A stretch of DNA of 64,000 nucleotides, from assembly GCA_023428265.1 (NCBI GenBank), contig JAEYYW010000013.1:1943-65942 (forward strand), given 5' to 3'. Below, piece after piece: positions 35,912 to 43,834 of the stretch; position 1 is the stretch's first letter, and every line of letters begins with the position of its first letter. Under the pieces are notes generated by a model that was given only the letters and a program-made list of their open reading frames with translations, searched no databases and was not told where the DNA came from. Source of the DNA: Bacillota bacterium (GTDB taxonomy: Bacteria > Bacillota > Clostridia > Christensenellales > UMGS416). A program made the position numbers and the translations under genes.

Positions 35912-35945
35912 ACATAAAATGCCTCTCCCTCCGCGGGAGAGGCAT
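35912..35945 (-). terminator. Rho-independent terminator after the alpha-oxoamine synthase gene
   Basis: On the minus strand: ATGCCTCTCC-CGCGGAG-GGAGAGGCAT followed by TTTTATGTT. Confidence 0.7.
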
Positions 35946-35961
35946 AATGATCACGTCATGC

Positions 35962-37137
35962 TCAAACCCTGGAGAAAACCCTCTTGAATGCCTCCACAGC
36001 AGTGTCCATCTGCTCGGTGGTGTGGGTGGCGGTGTAGCTGGTGCGCAGCATGCACTGGCCTTCCTGCACGGCCGGCGGAATCACCGGGTTCACATAGACG
36101 CCCTCTTCAAAAAGCATCTTCGTGATCAGGAACGTGCGTTGCATGTTGTAAGTATAAACCGGGATGATTGCGGAGTCGCCGTCGATGATGGGGATGCCGG
36201 CTTCTTTCAGCTTGCCGCGCATGTAGTTTGCGATGTCGATCAGTGCCTTTTGGCGCTGCGGCTCGCTGCGGATGATGCGCAAGGCTTCCAGCGCGGCGGC
36301 GGCGTTGGCCGGGGGGATGGACGCGCTGAAGATGAACGGGCGGGATTTGTGCTTCACATAATGGATCACCGGTTCCGATGCCGCGATGCAACCGCCCAGC
36401 GAAGCGAGACTCTTGGAGAATGTGGTCATGATAATGTCCACCTCATCCTCAAGGCCGAAGTGGGAGGCGGTGCCCCTTCCGCAGTCGCCCACCATGCCCA
36501 CGCCATGGGCGTCATCCACCATCAGGCGGGCGTTGTACTTTTTCTTCAGTTCCACAATGGCCGGAAGATTTGCTAAATCTCCGCTCATGCTGAAAACACC
36601 GTCGGTCACGATCAGTTTGCCGGCTTCCGCAGGCAGCCGCGCCAGTGTTTCCTCAAGATCCTGCATATCATTGTGGCGATACTTCACCGAGCGCTTGGCA
36701 AAGCTCAGCTTGCACGCATCCACAATGCTGGCGTGGTTTTCCTCATCGTTGATGATGTAGTCGTGCCAGCCGACGATGGAGGAGATGATGCCGAGATTGG
36801 TCTGAAAGCCAGTGCTGTAGGTCAGGGCTGCATCTTTGTGAAAGAAGTCTGCCAGCTCCGTTTCCAGTTGCTCGTGAAGCACCAGTGTGCCGTTGAGGAA
36901 GCGGGAACCGGAGCAGCCTGTGCCATATTGGTCCAGGGCGGCTTTGGCGGCGTTGACCGTTCTTGGATCAGATGTGAGGCCCATATAGTTGTTTGACCCG
37001 ATCATGATGATCCGGCGGCCATCAATGGTGACCTCTGTGTCCTGTGCGGTTTGCAGCGCGTGGAAATAGGGATAGAGCCCTGACTTCATGGCTTCCTTTG
37101 CGTCTGTGAATTTGTAGCACCTTTCGAAAATGTCCAT
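35962..37137 (-). CDS. PLP-dependent alpha-oxoamine synthase, serine-palmitoyltransferase-like (could alternatively be Kbl/BioF-type)
   Basis: GLYPYF, GSNNYMGLT, GTGCSGSRFLNGT, DDAHGVG, TFSKSLASLGG (PLP-Lys) and RPFIFSASIPP. AGGAGG RBS. Confidence 0.85.
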   Translation of the reverse strand: MDIFERCYKFTDAKEAMKSGLYPYFHALQTAQDTEVTIDGRRIIMIGSNNYMGLTSDPRTVNAAKAALDQYGTGCSGSRFLNGTLVLHEQLETELADFFHKDAALTYSTGFQTNLGIISSIVGWHDYIINDEENHASIVDACKLSFAKRSVKYRHNDMQDLEETLARLPAEAGKLIVTDGVFSMSGDLANLPAIVELKKKYNARLMVDDAHGVGMVGDCGRGTASHFGLEDEVDIIMTTFSKSLASLGGCIAASEPVIHYVKHKSRPFIFSASIPPANAAAALEALRIIRSEPQRQKALIDIANYMRGKLKEAGIPIIDGDSAIIPVYTYNMQRTFLITKMLFEEGVYVNPVIPPAVQEGQCMLRTSYTATHTTEQMDTAVEAFKRVFSRV

Positions 37138-37352
37138 GGGTTGCCTCCTGATAAATGATCAATGATTGCATTGTTGAGCAATTATATCATATTTTCCACC
37201 GTTCGGTCATTCAATGCTGTTTTTTTGCGATTTATATTGGGTTATCAATGTGTGATGGAGCCGCTGTCTTGCATTTGTATTTCAAAGGCGCTATGATTCA
37301 TCGAAAAGCTTATTGGGATCGTTGCACTGCCAGAGGAAGCGGAGGGGTTACG

Positions 37353-38198
37353 ATGGGCAAGGTTGTGTTGGTATCCGGGGCATCCTCGGGGTTGGGTCTG
37401 GCCACTGCGAACTATTTGTATGAGAAAGGCTGCATTGTATATGCCGGCGCCCGCTCCTATCGGGAGGAATCGGTGGAACACGGTGCGGGGGAGCTGCACA
37501 AGGTCTACTTGGATGTGTCCAGCGAAGACAGCGCCGCATTCCTGATGGAGAAGGTAATCCGTGAACAGGGCAGGATCGACGCTCTTGTCAATTGCGCCGC
37601 TGTTATCACGTTGGGATCCGTGGAGGATCTGTCCATGGAAGAATACCGTGAAGTAATCGATACCAACCTCTTCGGCACAATCCGGATGTGCAAACAAGCG
37701 CTCCCGCACATGCGCGCACAGGAGAGCGGTTTGATGATCAACTTCAGCTCCGGCGGCGGCATCATCGGCATCCCGTTTCAAAGCGCCTACTGCGGTTCGA
37801 AATTTGCGGTTGAGGGCTTTTCCGAGGTGCTGCGCTGGGAAGTCAAGAACCGGGGGATCCATGTGGTAGTGGTGGAACCGGGTGATTGCAGGTCCGGATC
37901 ACAGAACTATCGCCGTCGCGCTGCGAGAGCCCTCTCGCCGGACTCGGCATATGCAGATGACTTCAAGACTGTCACAGAAAAGATTGACCACGATGAAGCC
38001 AACGGCGCCGACCCCATCATGGTGGCCAAAACGGTGTACAAAATCCTGATGAGCCGCAAACCCAAAATCCGGTACAACGTGTTTCGTGCCGCTGAGAAAA
38101 TGCTTCCGTTCAAAATGATCATGCCGACGTGGTTCATTGAAACAGTTTTCTTCGGCTACTACAATTTGCAAAAGAAAGACAAGACGAAGAAATGCTAG
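37353..38198 (+). CDS. Classical short-chain dehydrogenase/reductase (SDR)
   Basis: The internal ATG at 37353 follows GGAAGCGGAGGGG. Motifs are VSGASSGLG (TGxxxGxG), NCAA and YCGSK (YxxxK). Confidence 0.85.
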   Translation: MGKVVLVSGASSGLGLATANYLYEKGCIVYAGARSYREESVEHGAGELHKVYLDVSSEDSAAFLMEKVIREQGRIDALVNCAAVITLGSVEDLSMEEYREVIDTNLFGTIRMCKQALPHMRAQESGLMINFSSGGGIIGIPFQSAYCGSKFAVEGFSEVLRWEVKNRGIHVVVVEPGDCRSGSQNYRRRAARALSPDSAYADDFKTVTEKIDHDEANGADPIMVAKTVYKILMSRKPKIRYNVFRAAEKMLPFKMIMPTWFIETVFFGYYNLQKKDKTKKC

Positions 38199-38219: not shown

Positions 38220-38248
38220 TTGAGTTATTTAGTTAGATAGCTTATAAT
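38220..38248 (+). promoter_or_regulatory. Sigma-A-type promoter of the MacB-type transporter operon
   Basis: TTGAGT (38220-38225), a 17-nt spacer, then TATAAT (38243-38248). Confidence 0.55.
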
Positions 38249-38293: not shown

Positions 38294-39325
38294 ATGTATG
38301 CGAGCCGCCCGATCAAGCTATTTGCGCTTCTTGTCGCGATGATGATCGCTGTGCTGGCCTCCGGATGCCAGTATATTCTTCCGTCTGAAGAAGAACCGCT
38401 GGCGCCGCCGCTGGTTGCACCGAAAAATGTGGATTACACCACGGTTGACGTGGTCAAAGGTGATCTGGTTAACTCCGTGCAGGGAGTGGGAAGGCTGGAA
38501 AGCGTCAGGCTGGAGGATGTCTATTTCACAGCTGGCGGCGGCCGCATCAAGAGCACCAATGTGGGGCTGGGAGACATGGTCAAAAAGGGCGATGTGCTGA
38601 TCCAGCTTAATGTGGATGACTTGAACCATCAGCTGGCCGTGGCCAAGCTCAGGCTGGAGCAGATGGAAAACAATTACGCCTCCATGAAAAAGCAGATGCG
38701 CGGGGCTCGTGACAAGACACCTCTGAAAAACGCGGAGATTGACTTGCAAATACAGAAACTTGAGATCAAGCGGTTGTCGGAGCAAATTGAAAACGCAACG
38801 CTGCGGGCGCCGATTGACGGTTCCGTGGTTTATGTGACATATGCCCGCCAGGGCAGTTATGTGGATGCGTATAGCACGCTGGTGCGGATCGCCGACCAAA
38901 GCCAGAAGATGCTCACCTATATTGATGATCTGAACCGATCCTATTTCCAGATTGGCATGAAGGTGCAGGTCACCCTTATTTCAGACAAAAGCACGACGGA
39001 GGGGGAAGTGGTGTCCACGCCCCTTGAACGGGAAAAGTATGATGATGAAAAGCTGAATAAGATGCTGTTTATCAAGGTGCCGGACGCGTTTTTGGCAAAC
39101 ACCAAAGTGGGGGAAGAGGCGAAACTTGTCCTGATCCTTGGTGAGCGAAAAGATGTTTTGAAGATCCCGAAAAGCGTGGTTCGCACATACCTGCAGCGCA
39201 AATATGTGCAGGTGCTGTCCGATGGCGTAAAGGTGGAGAAGGATATTCAGATCGGGTTGGAAACCGCCACTGAGGTGGAGGTCATCAGCGGTCTGGAAGA
39301 AGGCGAAAAGATCATCGTTCGCTGA
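38294..39325 (+). CDS. HlyD/MacA-type periplasmic adaptor lipoprotein
   Basis: Lipobox VLASGC, a barrel-sandwich motif VKKGDVLIQL, a coiled-coil segment and LRAPIDGSVVYV. Confidence 0.8.
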   Translation: MYASRPIKLFALLVAMMIAVLASGCQYILPSEEEPLAPPLVAPKNVDYTTVDVVKGDLVNSVQGVGRLESVRLEDVYFTAGGGRIKSTNVGLGDMVKKGDVLIQLNVDDLNHQLAVAKLRLEQMENNYASMKKQMRGARDKTPLKNAEIDLQIQKLEIKRLSEQIENATLRAPIDGSVVYVTYARQGSYVDAYSTLVRIADQSQKMLTYIDDLNRSYFQIGMKVQVTLISDKSTTEGEVVSTPLEREKYDDEKLNKMLFIKVPDAFLANTKVGEEAKLVLILGERKDVLKIPKSVVRTYLQRKYVQVLSDGVKVEKDIQIGLETATEVEVISGLEEGEKIIVR

Positions 39326-39353
39326 GACTCATCTTCAGCGAGGAGGGGGCCCC

Positions 39354-42194
39354 TTGTTCTTTTTGGTAATGAAAAAGATCATGAACAACAAATGGCTGAT
39401 GGGCTGCCTGCTGGTCGGCTCCATTCTGGCCGTTGCCATGGTCAGCAGCATCCCGCTCTATACAGGTGGGATCCTGCAGCGGATGCTGCTCAAAGACCTG
39501 GAGCAGTTCCAGCTGGATACCGGAAAATACCCCGGACGATATCAGATGGACCTGAACACATTCACTCACTATTCCGGTGATGCCAACAGCCGGGTGAACA
39601 CCTATCGCTGGTTTGACGCTCGGACCGACGGCATGGCAGACCAGTTCGGCTTGCCCTATCTCAAGGTCAAGCGCATCGGCATGGACTATATGACGTTTGT
39701 GCCGGAAGTACAGAAGGAAGAGAAGCCTGCCAGAATATATTGCAAACTGTATGGCGTGACCGACTACGAAAAGCACATTGAGCTTGTCGCCGGCAGGCTG
39801 CCTGCGGCCATGCCGGTGGACGGCGTTTATGAGGTTCTGGCCACAGAGTCGGCGCAGCAGAACAGCCTGAACATCGTTTTGAATGAGACCCTCGTCCTGA
39901 GGGATGAAACCAAGCAAATGGATCAGATCCGTGTGAAGGTCGTGGGTTTGTATCGCCGGCCCGAAGTGGCGGACGCATGGTGGAGCGAAGGTATCGGCAC
40001 TTATGACACCGCGCTGCTGATGGATTATCGCATGATGGAGCAGGACATCGTGCAGCAAAACCGGGCGATCGTCACCGCTTACTGGTATTATGCGCTGGAT
40101 TACACCAAGCTGAAGGTGACCGATCTGAAAGAGTTCAGCCATCTTCTCGATGAGCAGAAAAAGTCGTTCACCAAGTATGCCGGCACGCAGTGGCAGTTCC
40201 CGGCAAAGCCGATCCTGGATCAATACGCCGTCCGTGCAGACCAGCTAAGGCTCACGCTATGGGTGATGCAGGTGCCAATCCTGCTCATGCTGGCGTTCTA
40301 CATTTTTATGGTGAGCCAGCTCATCATTGAAAACGACCGCAACGAAATCGCGGTGATGCGCAGCCGCGGCGCATCGGGAATGCAGGTGTTTGGCAGTTAT
40401 CTGCTGCAAAGCGCGATTCTCAGCGGCATCTCGGTTGCCGTAGGGCCTATTGTGGCATTTTTCATATGCCGGGTGCTTGGTGCTGCAAACGGCTTTCTGG
40501 AGTTTGTTTCGCGCACCGCTCTTCCGCTTGAAATGGACTGGAACACAGTCCTGTATGCCATCTACGCTGCATTCTTCTCCATCCTAATGATGATGATTCC
40601 GGCTGTGCGGGCATCGAGAATCTCCATTGTGGAGCACAAGCAGAAAAGGGCGCGCCGTTGGAACGCACCTCTCTGGCAGAAAATGTTTTTGGATTTTATC
40701 CTGCTTGGCATCTCTCTCTATGGTTTGTTCCAGTATAACCTGCGCAAGGAAACCATTCTGGTCACGGCCGCAGAGGGGATGTCCGTCCCGGTGGATCCAT
40801 TCCTTTTTATCATTTCCACAGCCTTCGTGATCGGCGCGGGTCTGCTTTTCCTGCGGGTGTACCCCCTGGTGATCCGCCTGATTTCCTGGGCCGGCAGAAA
40901 AGTCTGGTCACCGGCCATCTATTCCTCCTTCATACAGGTGGGGCGATCCGGCGGCAGAGAGCAGTTCCTGATGCTGTTTCTGATCCTGACAATCTCCATT
41001 GGCGTGTTTAATGCCAACTCAGCCCGCACCATCAACCAGAACATCGTGGATAAAGTGAACTATCAGTATGGTGCGGACCTGACACTGCAGATGGAGTGGC
41101 AGAGCAATGAGATCAAAGACACCGTCGCGGTGCCAAGCGGGCTCCCCACGGTGGACACAACGACACCGCTTGCGCCGGCGATCATCTATCAGGAGCCCGA
41201 TTTTCACATCTACTCCAAGCTTGACGGCACAGCCGCTGCCGCGCGGGTCTTTATGCCCACCGGCAGCATAAGCATCTACGGCAGTGAGCGCAAGCAGAGA
41301 GCGGGCAAGCTGATGGCCGTTGTCCCGGATGAGTTCGGCAGAGTGGCCTGGAGCAAGCCAGATCTTCTGGGGCACCATATCAACGAATACCTGAACCTGC
41401 TGAGCCGCTCGCCCAACGCGGTGCTGATCTCCAAACCACTGATGGACGACCTCAAGCTGAAGCCGGGGGATCCGATTACATATCGCTGGGGCAGTCAGGA
41501 TGACGTGGACGGGGTTGTATACGCCGCGGTGCAGTTTTGGCCCGGTCTGAACCCATATGAAAGTGACAGCAGCAACTTTATCATCGCCAACCTGAACTAT
41601 GTGCAGGCCAAGACATCCAAGGAGCCTTATCAGATCTGGTATCAAAAAACGGAGGGCGCCACCACCAAACAGATCTATGATGACATTGAGGCCAAGCAGA
41701 TGAAACTGCAATGGGTCAAGGATGCCAGGCAGGAGATCATTAAAAAGAAGAATGACGCGCTGCTGCAAGGCACAAACGGCGCTATGACCCTTGGGTTTGT
41801 TGTAACGCTGGCGATCAGCATGATCGGGTTCTTTATCTACTGGATCCTGTCCATTCAAGCCAGGACATTGCATTTCGGTGTGTTCCGCGCGATGGGCATG
41901 AGTGCCGGCCGCGTGATTTTGATGCTTGTGTTTGAGCAGATCCTGATCTCCGGCGCATCCATACTGATGGGCTTGATCATCGGGGGAGTGATGAGCAATC
42001 TGTTTGTGCCGCTGCTTGGCCTGGTTTATGGCGCGGCGGAGCAGGTGCCTCCGTTCACTGTGATTGCCAGCCGGGAGGATTATCTGAGGCTATATGTGGT
42101 CGTTGGCGGGATGCTGGTTGCCGGCCTGGCACTTCTGGGGATACTCGTGAAGCGGATCAAGGTTTCCCAGGCCATCAAGCTGGGGGAGGATTGA
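39354..42194 (+). CDS. ABC transporter permease with two FtsX/MacB-type modules (946 aa)
   Basis: TTG start after GAGGAGGGGG. Two copies of the unit TM + large extracytoplasmic domain + 3 TM (FtsX-like). Confidence 0.85.
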   Translation: MFFLVMKKIMNNKWLMGCLLVGSILAVAMVSSIPLYTGGILQRMLLKDLEQFQLDTGKYPGRYQMDLNTFTHYSGDANSRVNTYRWFDARTDGMADQFGLPYLKVKRIGMDYMTFVPEVQKEEKPARIYCKLYGVTDYEKHIELVAGRLPAAMPVDGVYEVLATESAQQNSLNIVLNETLVLRDETKQMDQIRVKVVGLYRRPEVADAWWSEGIGTYDTALLMDYRMMEQDIVQQNRAIVTAYWYYALDYTKLKVTDLKEFSHLLDEQKKSFTKYAGTQWQFPAKPILDQYAVRADQLRLTLWVMQVPILLMLAFYIFMVSQLIIENDRNEIAVMRSRGASGMQVFGSYLLQSAILSGISVAVGPIVAFFICRVLGAANGFLEFVSRTALPLEMDWNTVLYAIYAAFFSILMMMIPAVRASRISIVEHKQKRARRWNAPLWQKMFLDFILLGISLYGLFQYNLRKETILVTAAEGMSVPVDPFLFIISTAFVIGAGLLFLRVYPLVIRLISWAGRKVWSPAIYSSFIQVGRSGGREQFLMLFLILTISIGVFNANSARTINQNIVDKVNYQYGADLTLQMEWQSNEIKDTVAVPSGLPTVDTTTPLAPAIIYQEPDFHIYSKLDGTAAAARVFMPTGSISIYGSERKQRAGKLMAVVPDEFGRVAWSKPDLLGHHINEYLNLLSRSPNAVLISKPLMDDLKLKPGDPITYRWGSQDDVDGVVYAAVQFWPGLNPYESDSSNFIIANLNYVQAKTSKEPYQIWYQKTEGATTKQIYDDIEAKQMKLQWVKDARQEIIKKKNDALLQGTNGAMTLGFVVTLAISMIGFFIYWILSIQARTLHFGVFRAMGMSAGRVILMLVFEQILISGASILMGLIIGGVMSNLFVPLLGLVYGAAEQVPPFTVIASREDYLRLYVVVGGMLVAGLALLGILVKRIKVSQAIKLGED

Positions 42195-42197
42195 GCG

Positions 42198-42923
42198 ATG
42201 GACAGGAAACCGATCATCTCCACAGACAACGTAAACCGGATCTTCCAGTCGGGCGTGGAGCGGGTGCACGCATTGAAGGACATCACCATCGACGTGAACC
42301 CTGGCACACTGACGGTGCTGAAGGGCCGCTCCGGGTCTGGCAAGACCACGCTGATGAACATATTGGGCGCTCTGGACCAGCCCACATCCGGTAAAGTTTT
42401 TTTTGACGGGAAGGATATCACATTGATGCACGAGGGGCAGCGTGACAGGCTGCGCCGGACGCAGTGCGGCTTCGTGTTCCAGTCGGTTGCCTTGATTGGG
42501 TTGATGTCCGCCTATGAAAATGTGGAGTTTGCTCTGCGCCTGAGCGGTATGCCCAGAAATCTCTGGCAAAGCAGGGTGGAGGAGTGCCTGGGATACATCG
42601 GCCTGAAGGGCCGCATGAGGCACCGGCCCGGCGAGCTTTCCGGCGGCGAGCAGCAGCGCGTGGCGATTGCCAGGGCAATCGCGCACAGGCCCAAAGTGAT
42701 TTTTGCCGACGAACCCACCGCAGAGCTGGACACCCACATGGGGCTGCAGGTGATGAAACTGTTTCGGGAGCTGGTGCGCTGCGAAGGCATTACCATTGTG
42801 ATGACCACGCACGACCCCAACATGATGGATCTGGCCGATCATGTCTACGCGCTGGATGACGGTGCGATCGTAGACGAGGTGCTCCACACATTCCCGGCGG
42901 AAGGTGAGGCGGGTTGTCTTTGA
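42198..42923 (+). CDS. ABC transporter ATP-binding protein (MacB/LolD type) 1
   Basis: GRSGSGKTT, LSGGEQQRVAIARA and IFADEPT. Confidence 0.9.
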   Translation: MDRKPIISTDNVNRIFQSGVERVHALKDITIDVNPGTLTVLKGRSGSGKTTLMNILGALDQPTSGKVFFDGKDITLMHEGQRDRLRRTQCGFVFQSVALIGLMSAYENVEFALRLSGMPRNLWQSRVEECLGYIGLKGRMRHRPGELSGGEQQRVAIARAIAHRPKVIFADEPTAELDTHMGLQVMKLFRELVRCEGITIVMTTHDPNMMDLADHVYALDDGAIVDEVLHTFPAEGEAGCL

Positions 42924-43834
42924 GCGAGATGATACAGGCTGAAAACCTGGTGAAGATTTACAAGACCTCCGAAACGGAGGTTGTGGCGCTGCAGGGCTTG
43001 GACTTGGTTGTGGAAACCGGTGAGATGATGGCAATCATCGGCAAATCCGGTTCGGGCAAATCCACCCTGCTCAATATGATCGGGGGTCTGGACAGGCCAA
43101 GCGCCGGCATACTGATGGTGGACGGCAAAAACATGCTCAAGTTCACCGAAAAAGACTATGTGAAATACAAGCGTGAAACGGTGGGCTTCATCTGGCAGAA
43201 CAATGCCCGCAACCTGATTCCGTATATGACGTCGATGGAAAACATACAGCTTCCCATGGTGCTGACCAGCGAGCGGGCGAGGCAGGAGAGGGCGCGGGAG
43301 CTGCTGGATGTTGTGGGGTTGTCTCACCGCTGGCGCAGCCGGCTGAGCCAGCTTTCCGGCGGCGAGCAGCAGCGTGTGGCCATCGCCATTGCTTTGGCCA
43401 ACAGGCCGAAGATTCTGCTGGCCGATGAGCCCACCGGCTCGGTGGATAACCGCACCGCGGATATGATTCTGGATATCTTCCGCGATGTCAACCGGCAGCT
43501 GGGCGTCACGATCATCATTGTGACCCATGACACGTCCCTGTCCGGCAAGGTGGACCGTATCGTTGCGATCCGCGACGGGCGCACCTCCAGCGAGTATGTG
43601 AGCCGTGTGTCTTATATGGATGAGCTGAAAAACGTGAAGAACCTCAACGAGAGCGAGCAGCACGTGGAGCTCGCCGTTGTCGACGGTGCCGGCCGGCTCC
43701 AGATTCCCACGGAGTATCTTGAGCAGATCGGTGTCAAGGGCCGCTCCCGCCTGCGTGTGGAAATGGACGGAGACCGCGTTGTGATCTTCAACCCCCGCGA
43801 GCAAAAGCAGGAAGAGGCAAACGAAGACGCCTAA
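42914..43834 (+). CDS. ABC transporter ATP-binding protein 2 with AbrB/SpoVT-like C-terminal extension
   Basis: GKSGSGKST, LSGGEQQRVAIAIAL and LLADEPT. The C-terminal roughly 80 aa include VVDGAGRLQIPTEYLEQIGVKGRSRLRVEMDGDRVVIF. The start is TTG 42914 or ATG 42929. Confidence 0.9.
   Translation: MSLSEMIQAENLVKIYKTSETEVVALQGLDLVVETGEMMAIIGKSGSGKSTLLNMIGGLDRPSAGILMVDGKNMLKFTEKDYVKYKRETVGFIWQNNARNLIPYMTSMENIQLPMVLTSERARQERARELLDVVGLSHRWRSRLSQLSGGEQQRVAIAIALANRPKILLADEPTGSVDNRTADMILDIFRDVNRQLGVTIIIVTHDTSLSGKVDRIVAIRDGRTSSEYVSRVSYMDELKNVKNLNESEQHVELAVVDGAGRLQIPTEYLEQIGVKGRSRLRVEMDGDRVVIFNPREQKQEEANEDA

What the first reader, a model, noticed from the sequence alone, without database searches (positions are those of the whole stretch)
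35962..38198. Serine-palmitoyltransferase-like synthase divergent from a classical SDR: candidate amino-lipid / sphingoid-base module in a Clostridial genome
The 391-aa alpha-oxoamine synthase carries motifs that I recall as typical of bacterial SPT rather than Kbl or BioF. These are GSNNYMGLT, GTGCSGSRFLNGT (E. coli Kbl has ASVRFICGT here), the PLP-lysine block TFSKSLASLGG (S. paucimobilis SPT has TFSKSVGTVGG, Kbl has TLGKALGG) and RPFIFSASIPP. A classical SDR (SGASSGLG, YCGSK) is transcribed divergently from a shared 215-bp AT-rich region. That is the enzyme class that reduces 3-ketosphinganine in eukaryotes. No bio genes and no Zn-dependent threonine dehydrogenase are adjacent. Sphingolipid-type chemistry is best known from Bacteroidota and some Proteobacteria, so such a pair in a spore-forming Firmicute would be notable. 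The main alternative is a Kbl-like enzyme paired with an SDR-type threonine dehydrogenase for threonine catabolism.
Basis: partly seen in the sequence, partly recalled or inferred. Interest (0 to 1): 0.55.

Follow-up and report, generated by a model that had tools for sequence, protein, structure and literature searches.

The report
Sphingoid-base gene pair in a Clostridium
This spore-forming Clostridia genome carries, back to back, close relatives of the two enzymes that start sphingolipid synthesis in Bacteroides, so it probably makes a sphinganine-like lipid base, a trait not credited to Gram-positive anaerobes, though no chemistry has tested this.

Summary
A 391-aa alpha-oxoamine synthase (35962-37137, minus) and a 281-aa classical SDR (37353-38198, plus) diverge from a 215-bp region of 42% GC, against 57% for the window.

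The synthase is the only family member in this genome. It scores best to the Bacteroidota serine palmitoyltransferase model (555 bits; Kbl 396, BioF 384). It is 52-53% identical to Bacteroidales SPTs and 39-41% to Kbl.

In a careful tree its Bacillota clade is sister to Bacteroidales SPT (98/93), inside a 100/100 SPT-type clade. An AU test rejects union with Kbl (p 3.5e-5). The residues that separate SPT from Kbl and from cysteate acyltransferase are SPT-type in 110 of 110 clade members.

The SDR belongs to one NADP(H)-type ortholog group, which sits beside the synthase in 63 of 97 loci in three arrangements. Its best model is 3-ketosphinganine reductase KdsR. Genuine tdh-kbl operons coexist with the SPT-like gene in other Clostridia, and this genome lacks bioA and Tdh.

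The most likely function is synthesis of a sphinganine-type base. Both proteins fall below the curated cut-offs, and no lipid data exist.

Three unlinked YghO/bCerS-like acyltransferases are candidates for the N-acylation step.

This scan had already found the same pair in at least 31 other genomes.

The parts
35962..37137 (-). SPT-like alpha-oxoamine synthase, 391 aa, PLP lysine K242
   Evidence: ORF and translation. NF047600 scores 554.7 bits against Kbl 395.8 and BioF 384. The PDB S. multivorum SPT scores 428 bits. Tree and AU test. Residue table.
35919..35945 (-). Terminator-like hairpin directly after the synthase stop, so the gene is probably monocistronic
   Evidence: 11-pair stem with 7 GC pairs and a T-rich tail. 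This is a consensus match only.
37181..37210 (-). Promoter-like site for the synthase (ATGACC-18-TATAAT with a TG extension)
   Evidence: 10 of 12 matches. This is a consensus match only.
37138..37352 (.). 215-bp divergent intergenic region, 41.9% GC
   Evidence: The scan found no sigma-70-like site for the SDR here.
37353..38198 (+). KdsR-like classical SDR, 281 aa; TGxxxGxG as SGASSGLG, Arg34, and the catalytic residues N105, S133, Y146 and K150
   Evidence: Start and ribosome-binding site. NF049977 is the best model at 222.5 bits. It is the only strong KdsR-like gene in the genome, the next scoring 88 bits. A profile of 59 synthase-adjacent SDRs from other genomes scores it 265 bits, and the next paralog 116. 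Conserved residues.

Best explanation
The pair is a two-step module that makes a sphingoid-type long-chain base.

Inferred step 1: the PLP enzyme forms an external aldimine with L-serine on K242. It then condenses it, with loss of CO2, with a long-chain acyl thioester (acyl-CoA or, more plausibly in a Firmicute, acyl-ACP). The product is a 3-ketosphinganine-type amino ketone.

Inferred step 2: the divergently transcribed NADPH-type SDR reduces the 3-keto group to give a sphinganine-type amino diol.

Shown here: homology, clade placement, an SPT-type active-site signature, conserved gene linkage and co-occurrence across genomes.

Inferred only: the substrates, the direction of the reaction and the products.

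A later N-acylation to dihydroceramide may be done by one of three unlinked YghO/bCerS-family GNAT proteins in the same genome. That step is a lead, not a finding.
For: 1. Among alpha-oxoamine synthase models, the Bacteroidota SPT model is far the best: 554.7 bits against 395.8 for Kbl, 384 for BioF and 278 for ALAS.

2. Among solved enzymes, S. multivorum SPT scores 428 bits. Alphaproteobacterial SPTs score 282-291, Kbl 257-272, cysteate acyltransferases 232-239 and BioF about 199.

3. The protein is 52-53% identical to Bacteroides, Parabacteroides, Prevotella and Phocaeicola SPT genes, and 39-41% identical to Kbl.

4. In the careful ML tree the Bacillota clade has 98/98 support. It is sister to Bacteroidales SPT (98/93), within an SPT-type clade of 100/100. 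An AU test rejects a clade with Kbl (delta lnL 91.8, p 3.5e-5).

5. All PLP and substrate-contacting residues described for S. multivorum SPT (PMC10196870) are kept. Positions that differ between SPT and Kbl are SPT-type in nearly all of the 110 clade members: Y24, F25, G77, S78, N82, F240, S243, I269, A272 and P351. The cysteate-enzyme lysine equivalent is Ala in 110 of 110.

6. In 300 sampled Clostridia genomes the scores are bimodal. Forty genomes score 511-597 bits, followed by a gap.

7. The SDR lies next to the synthase in 63 of 97 loci with enough flank, in three arrangements: 45 divergent, 13 downstream and 5 upstream.

8. The adjacent SDRs form one ortholog group, conserved along the whole length. 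The Arg after strand 2 is present in 57 of 58, which is the NADP(H)-type mark. KdsR was the best model for all five tested, at 224-299 bits.

9. An SDR hit occurs in 36 of 41 genomes with the synthase and in 16 of 259 without it.

10. G271 and G003 carry a real tdh-kbl operon as well as the SPT-like gene.

11. In this genome the protein is the only alpha-oxoamine synthase. No bioA and no Tdh reach their cut-offs.
Against: - Both proteins are below the curated equivalog cut-offs: 554.7 against 640, and 222.5 against 400.
- This window's SDR is a divergent member of its group. KdsR beats generic SDR families by only 5 bits, and the protein departs from the group consensus at about ten highly conserved positions.
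- About a third of loci have no adjacent SDR.
- Position 76 is Ser in 107 of 110 members where Bacteroidales have Ala. This residue touches the substrate side chain through water, so serine specificity is not assured.
- The clade evolves slowly and is widespread (60-80% identity across classes). That pattern would also fit a housekeeping role.
- No conserved third gene lies nearby.
- I found no report of sphingolipids in Clostridia.
- Firmicutes usually lack long-chain acyl-CoA pools (my own knowledge).
Confidence: 0.7

Rival explanations
1. The chemistry is the same, but the substrates differ. The synthase condenses glycine, alanine or another small amino acid, or uses a short or unusual acyl chain. 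The SDR then reduces the product to an amino alcohol that is not a sphingoid base, for example a 1-deoxy base, a signal molecule or a head-group precursor.
For: Ser replaces the Ala79 equivalent in 107 of 110 clade members, and Asn replaces the Ser53 equivalent. The Ala79 equivalent corresponds to human SPTLC1 Cys133 and contacts the substrate side chain through water (PMC10196870). SPTs accept Ala and Gly at low rates (abstract of PMC10196870). The scores lie below the SPT equivalog cut-off. No ceramide synthase is linked.
Against: This position varies among the SPT-type proteins compared here: Ala in Bacteroidales, and Thr or Ser in the Priestia, Rubrobacter and Aureispira group. Every other serine-contacting residue and the acyl-wall residues Y24, F25, F80 and L81 are conserved with S. 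multivorum SPT.
Confidence: 0.17
2. The pair is catabolic. The SDR oxidises threonine or another beta-hydroxy amino acid. The synthase then acts like Kbl, cleaving the 2-amino-3-keto acid with CoA to glycine plus an acyl-CoA.
For: A dehydrogenase beside an alpha-oxoamine synthase is also the layout of tdh-kbl. The protein is the only family member in this genome. In genus g13 a Zn-dependent MDR dehydrogenase replaces the SDR beside the synthase. The clade is slow-evolving and widespread.
Against: The tree and AU test exclude a Kbl affinity. The Kbl-type residues are absent. The SDR is NADP(H)-type with Arg34, not an NAD-type catabolic enzyme. Known SDR-type threonine dehydrogenases are extended SDRs, not classical ones (my own knowledge). 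G271 and G003 already have full tdh-kbl operons. The g13 MDR protein scores only 160 bits to the Tdh model, whose cut-off is 458.
Confidence: 0.06
3. The synthase is the organism's BioF, the 8-amino-7-oxononanoate synthase of biotin synthesis.
For: JGI pipelines name many clade members 8-amino-7-oxononanoate synthase. It is the only family member in the genome.
Against: The BioF model scores 384 bits against a cut-off of 426. The clade is separate from BioF in the tree. No bioA reaches its cut-off in this 96.6%-complete genome. No bio genes lie nearby.
Confidence: 0.02

Closest known systems
Bacteroidota (CFB-type) serine palmitoyltransferase: S. multivorum SPT (PDB 3A2B, 8GUH) and Bacteroides Spt (NCBIfam NF047600)
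   Same: 52-53% identity over the full length. They are sister clades. They share the same PLP-binding TFSKS block, His, Asp and His residues, the G-S-R-F-L-N substrate loop and the Tyr/Phe acyl wall. Both are soluble proteins of about 390 aa.
   Different: The score is below the equivalog cut-off, 555 against 640. Ser stands at the Ala79 equivalent and Asn at the Ser53 equivalent. The host is a Gram-positive spore former with no outer membrane. The Bacteroides gene sits next to a DAG-kinase-family gene, not next to the reductase.
Bacteroides thetaiotaomicron 3-ketosphinganine reductase BT_0972 / KdsR (NF049977; PMC9278070)
   Same: It is the best-scoring model for this SDR and for five of five orthologs tested. 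Both are classical SDRs with a Gly-rich NADPH motif and a Y-x3-K catalytic motif.
   Different: It scores only 222.5 bits against a cut-off of 400, almost level with generic PRK06182 at 217.5. Here the reductase is linked to the synthase. In the Bacteroides loci examined, the immediate neighbours of the SPT gene do not include an SDR.
Proteobacterial ceramide cluster: Caulobacter spt, acpR, aasR, epi/cerR and aca/bCerS; E. coli BL21 yghO locus (PMC9386255)
   Same: The first reaction is the same. This genome holds three full-length homologs of YghO/Aca, 26-29% identical with E 1e-34 to 5e-46.
   Different: No dedicated ACP or acyl-ACP synthetase lies by the pair. The reductase is a classical SDR, not an epimerase-family CerR. 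The YghO-like genes are unlinked.
Kbl (glycine C-acetyltransferase) with Tdh
   Same: The fold family is the same, and so is the layout of a synthase next to a dehydrogenase.
   Different: Identity is 39-41%. The clade is separate, a joint clade is rejected, and the loop and acyl-site residues are of a different type.

Membership tests
CFB-type serine palmitoyltransferase (NF047600) | Score over the curated equivalog cut-off (640 bits) | tested here: not met
   554.7 bits. None of 300 Clostridia genomes passes; the best is 596.7.
CFB-type serine palmitoyltransferase (NF047600) | Groups with characterised-type Bacteroidota SPTs, apart from Kbl and BioF | tested here: met
   Sister to Bacteroidales SPT at 98/93, within an SPT-type clade at 100/100. 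AU test p 3.5e-5 against union with Kbl. That group was named after the tree had been seen. Alphaproteobacterial SPT, ALAS and CqsA were compared only by PDB bit scores.
CFB-type serine palmitoyltransferase (NF047600) | PLP lysine, His stacking, Asp-N1 and His-O3' residues, plus the SPT-type substrate loop and acyl wall | tested here: met
   K242, H135, D208, H211, T239, G77-S78-R79-F80-L81-N82, Y24 and F25 are conserved in 107-110 of 110 members.
CFB-type serine palmitoyltransferase (NF047600) | Condenses L-serine with a long-chain acyl thioester | not testable with these tools
   Needs an enzyme assay or lipid analysis.
3-ketodihydrosphingosine reductase KdsR (NF049977) | Score over the curated cut-off (400 bits) | tested here: not met
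   222.5 bits. Orthologs from other loci score 224-299.
3-ketodihydrosphingosine reductase KdsR (NF049977) | KdsR is the best model, and this is the only such gene in the genome | tested here: met
   It ranks first, but by only 5 bits in this window and by 17-46 bits in five orthologs. The next KdsR-like gene in the genome scores 88 bits.
3-ketodihydrosphingosine reductase KdsR (NF049977) | Classical SDR catalytic residues and an NADPH-type cofactor site | tested here: met
   N105, S133, Y146 and K150, the Gly motif, and Arg34 in 57 of 58. The cofactor preference is inferred from SDR classification rules (my own knowledge).
3-ketodihydrosphingosine reductase KdsR (NF049977) | Reduces 3-ketosphinganine | not testable with these tools
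   Needs an assay such as that in PMC9278070.
Kbl, glycine C-acetyltransferase (NF005394) | Score over the cut-off (460), Kbl clade, tdh partner | tested here: not met
   395.8 bits. Separate clade. No Tdh over its cut-off in the genome.
BioF (TIGR00858) | Score over the cut-off (426) and a biotin pathway context | tested here: not met
   384.3 bits. No bioA over its cut-off.
Cysteate fatty acyltransferase (CFAT/SulA) | Remodelled pocket with a Lys280 equivalent and Gly-Ala in place of Gly-Ser | tested here: not met
   Ala272 and G77-S78 in 110 of 110 members, compared with PMC13692747. PDB scores are only 232-239 bits.
Bacterial ceramide synthase Aca/bCerS (YghO, CC_1154) for the unlinked GNAT genes | Full-length homology to YghO and genomic or phyletic linkage to spt | tested here: inconclusive
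   Homology holds over about 370-400 aa, with E 1e-34 to 5e-46. The genes are not linked. The C121-type occurs in 25 of 41 genomes with the synthase and in 14 of 259 without it. The other type often sits by sugar transporters and also occurs in genomes without the synthase.

The most novel reading that the evidence does not exclude
Many Clostridia and related Bacillota, including wall-less Acholeplasma and Izemoplasma relatives, may make complete dihydroceramides by a hybrid route. The first two enzymes would be of the Bacteroidota type (Spt, KdsR). The N-acyltransferase would be of the proteobacterial YghO/bCerS family, encoded elsewhere in the genome. Gram-positive gut and digester anaerobes would then be an overlooked source of sphingolipids.
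Probability: 0.3. Interest if true: 0.75.

Novelty: new member of a known kind. Interest (0 to 1): 0.6.

Why it matters
Bacterial sphingolipids are credited to Bacteroidota, some Proteobacteria and a few Actinobacteria. In the gut, Bacteroides sphingolipids enter host tissues and modulate immunity and lipid metabolism.

About one in seven of the Clostridia species sampled here carries this pair. If these species make sphingoid bases, then studies that equate microbial sphingolipid capacity with Bacteroidota would miss a large group. One recent metagenomic study detected SPT only in E. coli and B. thetaiotaomicron.

It would also give a genetic basis for the sphingolipid reported decades ago in Acholeplasma axanthum (my own memory, not checked here). 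It would raise the question of what a sphingoid lipid does in a single-membrane, spore-forming cell.

A cultured carrier exists (Fonticella tunisiensis DSM 24455, L049), so the idea can be tested directly.

Tried and rejected
- **Kbl reading:** rejected by tree, AU test, residues and the coexistence of tdh-kbl operons.
- **BioF reading:** rejected, as no bioA was found and the clade is separate.
- **Cysteate acyltransferase reading:** rejected on pocket residues and low scores.
- **Search for a conserved third gene next to the pair:** clustering of neighbours in 109 loci, and a Pfam scan of 150 neighbour families, found nothing recurrent. The exceptions were an AbrB-like trio in one sublineage and scattered GNATs.
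- **PF13480 as a bCerS proxy:** it gave only weak hits of 22-26 bits in this genome. The YghO comparison was more informative.
- **The type-A YghO-like paralogs (C98, C123)** were set aside as ceramide synthase candidates. Their relatives occur in genomes without the synthase and lie beside sugar transporters.
- **AU test under the mixture model on 54 rows:** it did not finish in two tries. I repeated it on 24 rows with LG+G4.
- **The listing of cluster members** returned no organism names.
- **PDB search with the SDR** gave only generic SDR hits.
- **No structure was predicted.** Residue mapping onto the solved SPT answered the pocket question as far as sequence can.
- **Literature searches** found no paper on SPT or sphingolipids in Clostridia or Bacillota.
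Full report
**What is there**

The window holds a 391-aa ORF on the minus strand at 35962-37137. An SDR gene lies on the plus strand. Its longest ORF starts at 37155, but its real start is the ATG at 37353, behind a GGAGGGG ribosome-binding site. The spacer is 41.9% GC in a 57.3% GC window.

All quoted motifs are present. The synthase has its own promoter-like site (37210-37181) and a hairpin terminator right after its stop codon (35945-35919). It is therefore probably a single-gene transcript that diverges from the SDR.

The flanking genes have no obvious link to the pair. They encode an EAL-HDOD protein, an MFS transporter, two ABC exporters and a MacB-type export system.

**Which alpha-oxoamine synthase is it**

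- Against NCBIfam, the Bacteroidota SPT model scores 554.7 bits (cut-off 640). Kbl scores 395.8, BioF 384, alphaproteobacterial SPT 335, ALAS 278 and CqsA 189.
- Against solved structures, S. multivorum SPT scores 428 bits. Sphingomonad SPTs score 282-291, Kbl 257-272, cysteate acyltransferases 232-239 and BioF about 199.
- A tblastn search of PLSDB returned chromosome pieces filed as plasmids. These gave named references. Bacteroides, Parabacteroides, Prevotella and Phocaeicola SPT genes are 52-53% identical. Kbl genes of E. coli and Bacillus are 39-41% identical.
- I fetched these references, together with a Bacillus tdh-kbl operon, an Alicyclobacillus bioA-bioF-bioD operon and E. coli bioF.

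**Tree and topology test**

A careful IQ-TREE analysis of 54 proteins gave three main results:

- The Bacillota clade has 98/98 support.
- It is sister to Bacteroidales SPT (98/93).
- Both lie in an SPT-type clade with 100/100 support and a long stem. That clade also holds a Priestia plasmid gene and the Rubrobacter and Aureispira genes.

Kbl and BioF form separate clades. An AU test on a 24-row subset rejects joining the Bacillota clade with Kbl (delta lnL 91.8, p 3.5e-5). The group was named after the tree had been seen. The mixture-model version of the test did not finish.

**Active site**

I mapped the residues described for S. multivorum SPT (PMC10196870) through the pairwise alignment.

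The following are all present:

- the PLP lysine K242;
- the stacking and carboxylate-anchoring His135;
- Asp208, His211, Thr239 and Ser183;
- the water-network residues Asn49 and Tyr51;
- the loop G77-S78-R79-F80-L81-N82;
- the acyl-wall residues Tyr24, Phe25, Phe80 and Phe336.

Across 110 clade members these are nearly invariant. At the positions where Kbl differs from SPT (24, 25, 77, 78, 82, 240, 243, 269, 272, 351), the clade always has the SPT residue.

The lysine that helps bind the sulfonate in cysteate acyltransferases (PMC13692747) corresponds to Ala272 in 110 of 110 members.

There are two systematic differences from Bacteroidales. Ser76 stands in place of Ala, and Asn50 in place of Ala or Cys. 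Position 76 touches the substrate side chain through water, so serine use is likely but not certain.

**Distribution**

In this 96.6%-complete genome the gene is the only alpha-oxoamine synthase. No bioA and no Zn-dependent Tdh reach their cut-offs.

In an even sample of 300 Clostridia genomes the scores to the SPT model are bimodal. Forty genomes from many families score 511-597 bits, then there is a gap.

Close relatives (60-94% identity) occur in several groups:

- Christensenellales, Oscillospiraceae and Clostridiaceae;
- the cultured Fonticella tunisiensis;
- Acholeplasmatales and Izemoplasma-type genomes.

**The SDR and its link to the synthase**

Of 97 loci with enough flanking DNA, 63 have a homologous SDR directly beside the synthase. 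It is divergent in 45, downstream on the same strand in 13 and upstream on the same strand in 5. Linkage kept through three rearrangements argues for a shared function.

The adjacent SDRs align along their whole length. They share many conserved residues beyond the generic SDR set. The catalytic Asn, Ser, Tyr and Lys are invariant or nearly so, and an Arg after strand 2 is present in 57 of 58. That Arg is the mark of NADP(H)-using classical SDRs.

KdsR is the top NCBIfam model for this SDR (222.5 bits, cut-off 400) and for all five orthologs tested (224-299 bits).

This window's SDR is a divergent member. A profile built only from 59 orthologs of other genomes still scores it 265 bits, against 116 for the next SDR in the genome. 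The KdsR model finds no second strong hit in the genome.

Across the 300 genomes, an SDR hit at E 1e-25 or better occurs in 36 of 41 genomes with the synthase and in 16 of 259 without it. Related genomes are not independent, so this is a description and not a test.

**The catabolic alternative**

A dehydrogenase next to an alpha-oxoamine synthase is also the tdh-kbl layout, so linkage alone cannot decide between the two readings. Three results speak against the catabolic one:

- G271 and G003 have a true Kbl (in the clade of E. coli Kbl) beside a Tdh that is 42-45% identical to Bacillus Tdh, in addition to the SPT-like gene.
- The SDR is NADP(H)-type.
- The synthase's residues and clade are SPT-type.

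In genus g13 (G271, G080) the SDR is not found. A 403-aa Zn-dependent MDR dehydrogenase sits beside the synthase instead, and it scores only 160 bits to the Tdh model. I read this as replacement of the reductase by an unrelated enzyme. It keeps the catabolic idea alive at a low level.

**Later steps**

No third gene is conserved next to the pair. There are scattered hints:

- A YegS/DAG-kinase-type lipid kinase lies just downstream in one Clostridium (L050). This echoes the DAG-kinase-family gene beside Bacteroides and Parabacteroides SPT.
- A D-2-hydroxyacid dehydrogenase follows the pair in Izemoplasma-type genomes.

The Rubrobacter and Aureispira loci carry the synthase with a 380-aa GNAT protein and an epimerase-family reductase. 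This is the Caulobacter-type trio.

That GNAT protein is 33% identical to E. coli YghO. PMC9386255 lists YghO with Caulobacter CC_1154 as the acyl-CoA N-acyltransferase needed for dihydroceramide.

This genome has three full-length YghO homologs, on contigs C121, C98 and C123, with E 5e-46 to 4e-34.

- The C121 type occurs in 25 of 41 genomes with the synthase and in 14 of 259 without it. It has no conserved neighbours.
- The C98/C123 type also occurs in genomes without the synthase, often beside sugar transporters. In this genome the C98 copy overlaps the start of a FabV gene.

The C121-type protein is therefore a candidate ceramide synthase and nothing more.

**Comparison with what is known, and verdict**

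I found no paper that reports SPT or sphingolipids in Clostridia or Bacillota. [quoted passage not shown]

Earlier agents of this scan reached the same reading on at least 31 other genomes. Some of those had extended operons with acyl ligases, carrier proteins and acyltransferases.

The pair is best filed as a new member of a known kind. It consists of Bacteroidota-type Spt and KdsR homologs in a phylum where they are not described, both below the curated equivalog thresholds, with substrates and products untested.

Noticed in passing
G000:C121:3814-5007 (+), G000:C98:16174-17385 (-), G000:C123:172-1326 (-); loci L145, L144, L146: There are three full-length homologs of E. coli YghO / Caulobacter CC_1154, the bacterial ceramide synthase family, elsewhere in this genome. 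The C98 copy overlaps by 4 nt the start of a FabV enoyl-ACP reductase gene and follows a GPH sugar symporter gene.
   Followed up: partly
L093 and L094 (G271, G080): In one Clostridia genus the SPT-like gene has no SDR partner. It is followed instead by a 403-aa Zn-dependent MDR dehydrogenase that is only distantly like Tdh. This looks like replacement of the reductase by an unrelated enzyme.
   Followed up: partly
L050:7387-8292 (+); L082:3740-4765; L083:3816-4787: A YegS/DAG-kinase-type lipid kinase lies just downstream of the SPT-like gene in Candidatus Clostridium radicumherbarum. Bacteroides and Parabacteroides SPT genes also sit beside a DAG-kinase-family gene.
   Followed up: no
L065, L069, L074, L077, L078 (Izemoplasma-type and Bacilli genomes): The operon order is synthase, SDR, then a D-2-hydroxyacid dehydrogenase, with PEP carboxykinase next to it in four of the five loci. 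A MacB-type ABC-FtsX gene with a TetR regulator lies upstream in at least two.
   Followed up: no
L085 (Rubrobacter radiotolerans plasmid 1) and L087 (Aureispira anguillae plasmid pAUEa): These are plasmid-borne Caulobacter-type trios: an SPT-like gene, a YghO-like GNAT and an epimerase-family reductase. In Rubrobacter an LTA-synthase-family gene follows.
   Followed up: partly
L084 (Priestia megaterium plasmid unnamed4): A mobilizable Bacillus-group plasmid carries an SPT-type gene, 50% identical to the window's, near an acyltransferase-family gene and a methyltransferase gene.
   Followed up: no
L034, L039, L044, L045, L053, L055, L058, L080, L099, L100, L102, L114, L119: In one sublineage an 81-aa AbrB-like regulator gene and two small genes (about 206 and 172 aa) recur right beside the SPT-like gene.
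   Followed up: no
window 38294-43834: The MacB-type export operon directly downstream of the SDR keeps this position in the four closest relatives (L001-L004). It has its own promoter-like site at 38220-38248.
   Followed up: no
PLSDB records OY726005.1, NC_022111.1, NZ_OY725812.1, NZ_OY725929.1, NZ_CP154629.1: Several records filed as plasmids are chromosome pieces or whole chromosomes. They were useful here as named references, but their label is misleading.
   Followed up: no
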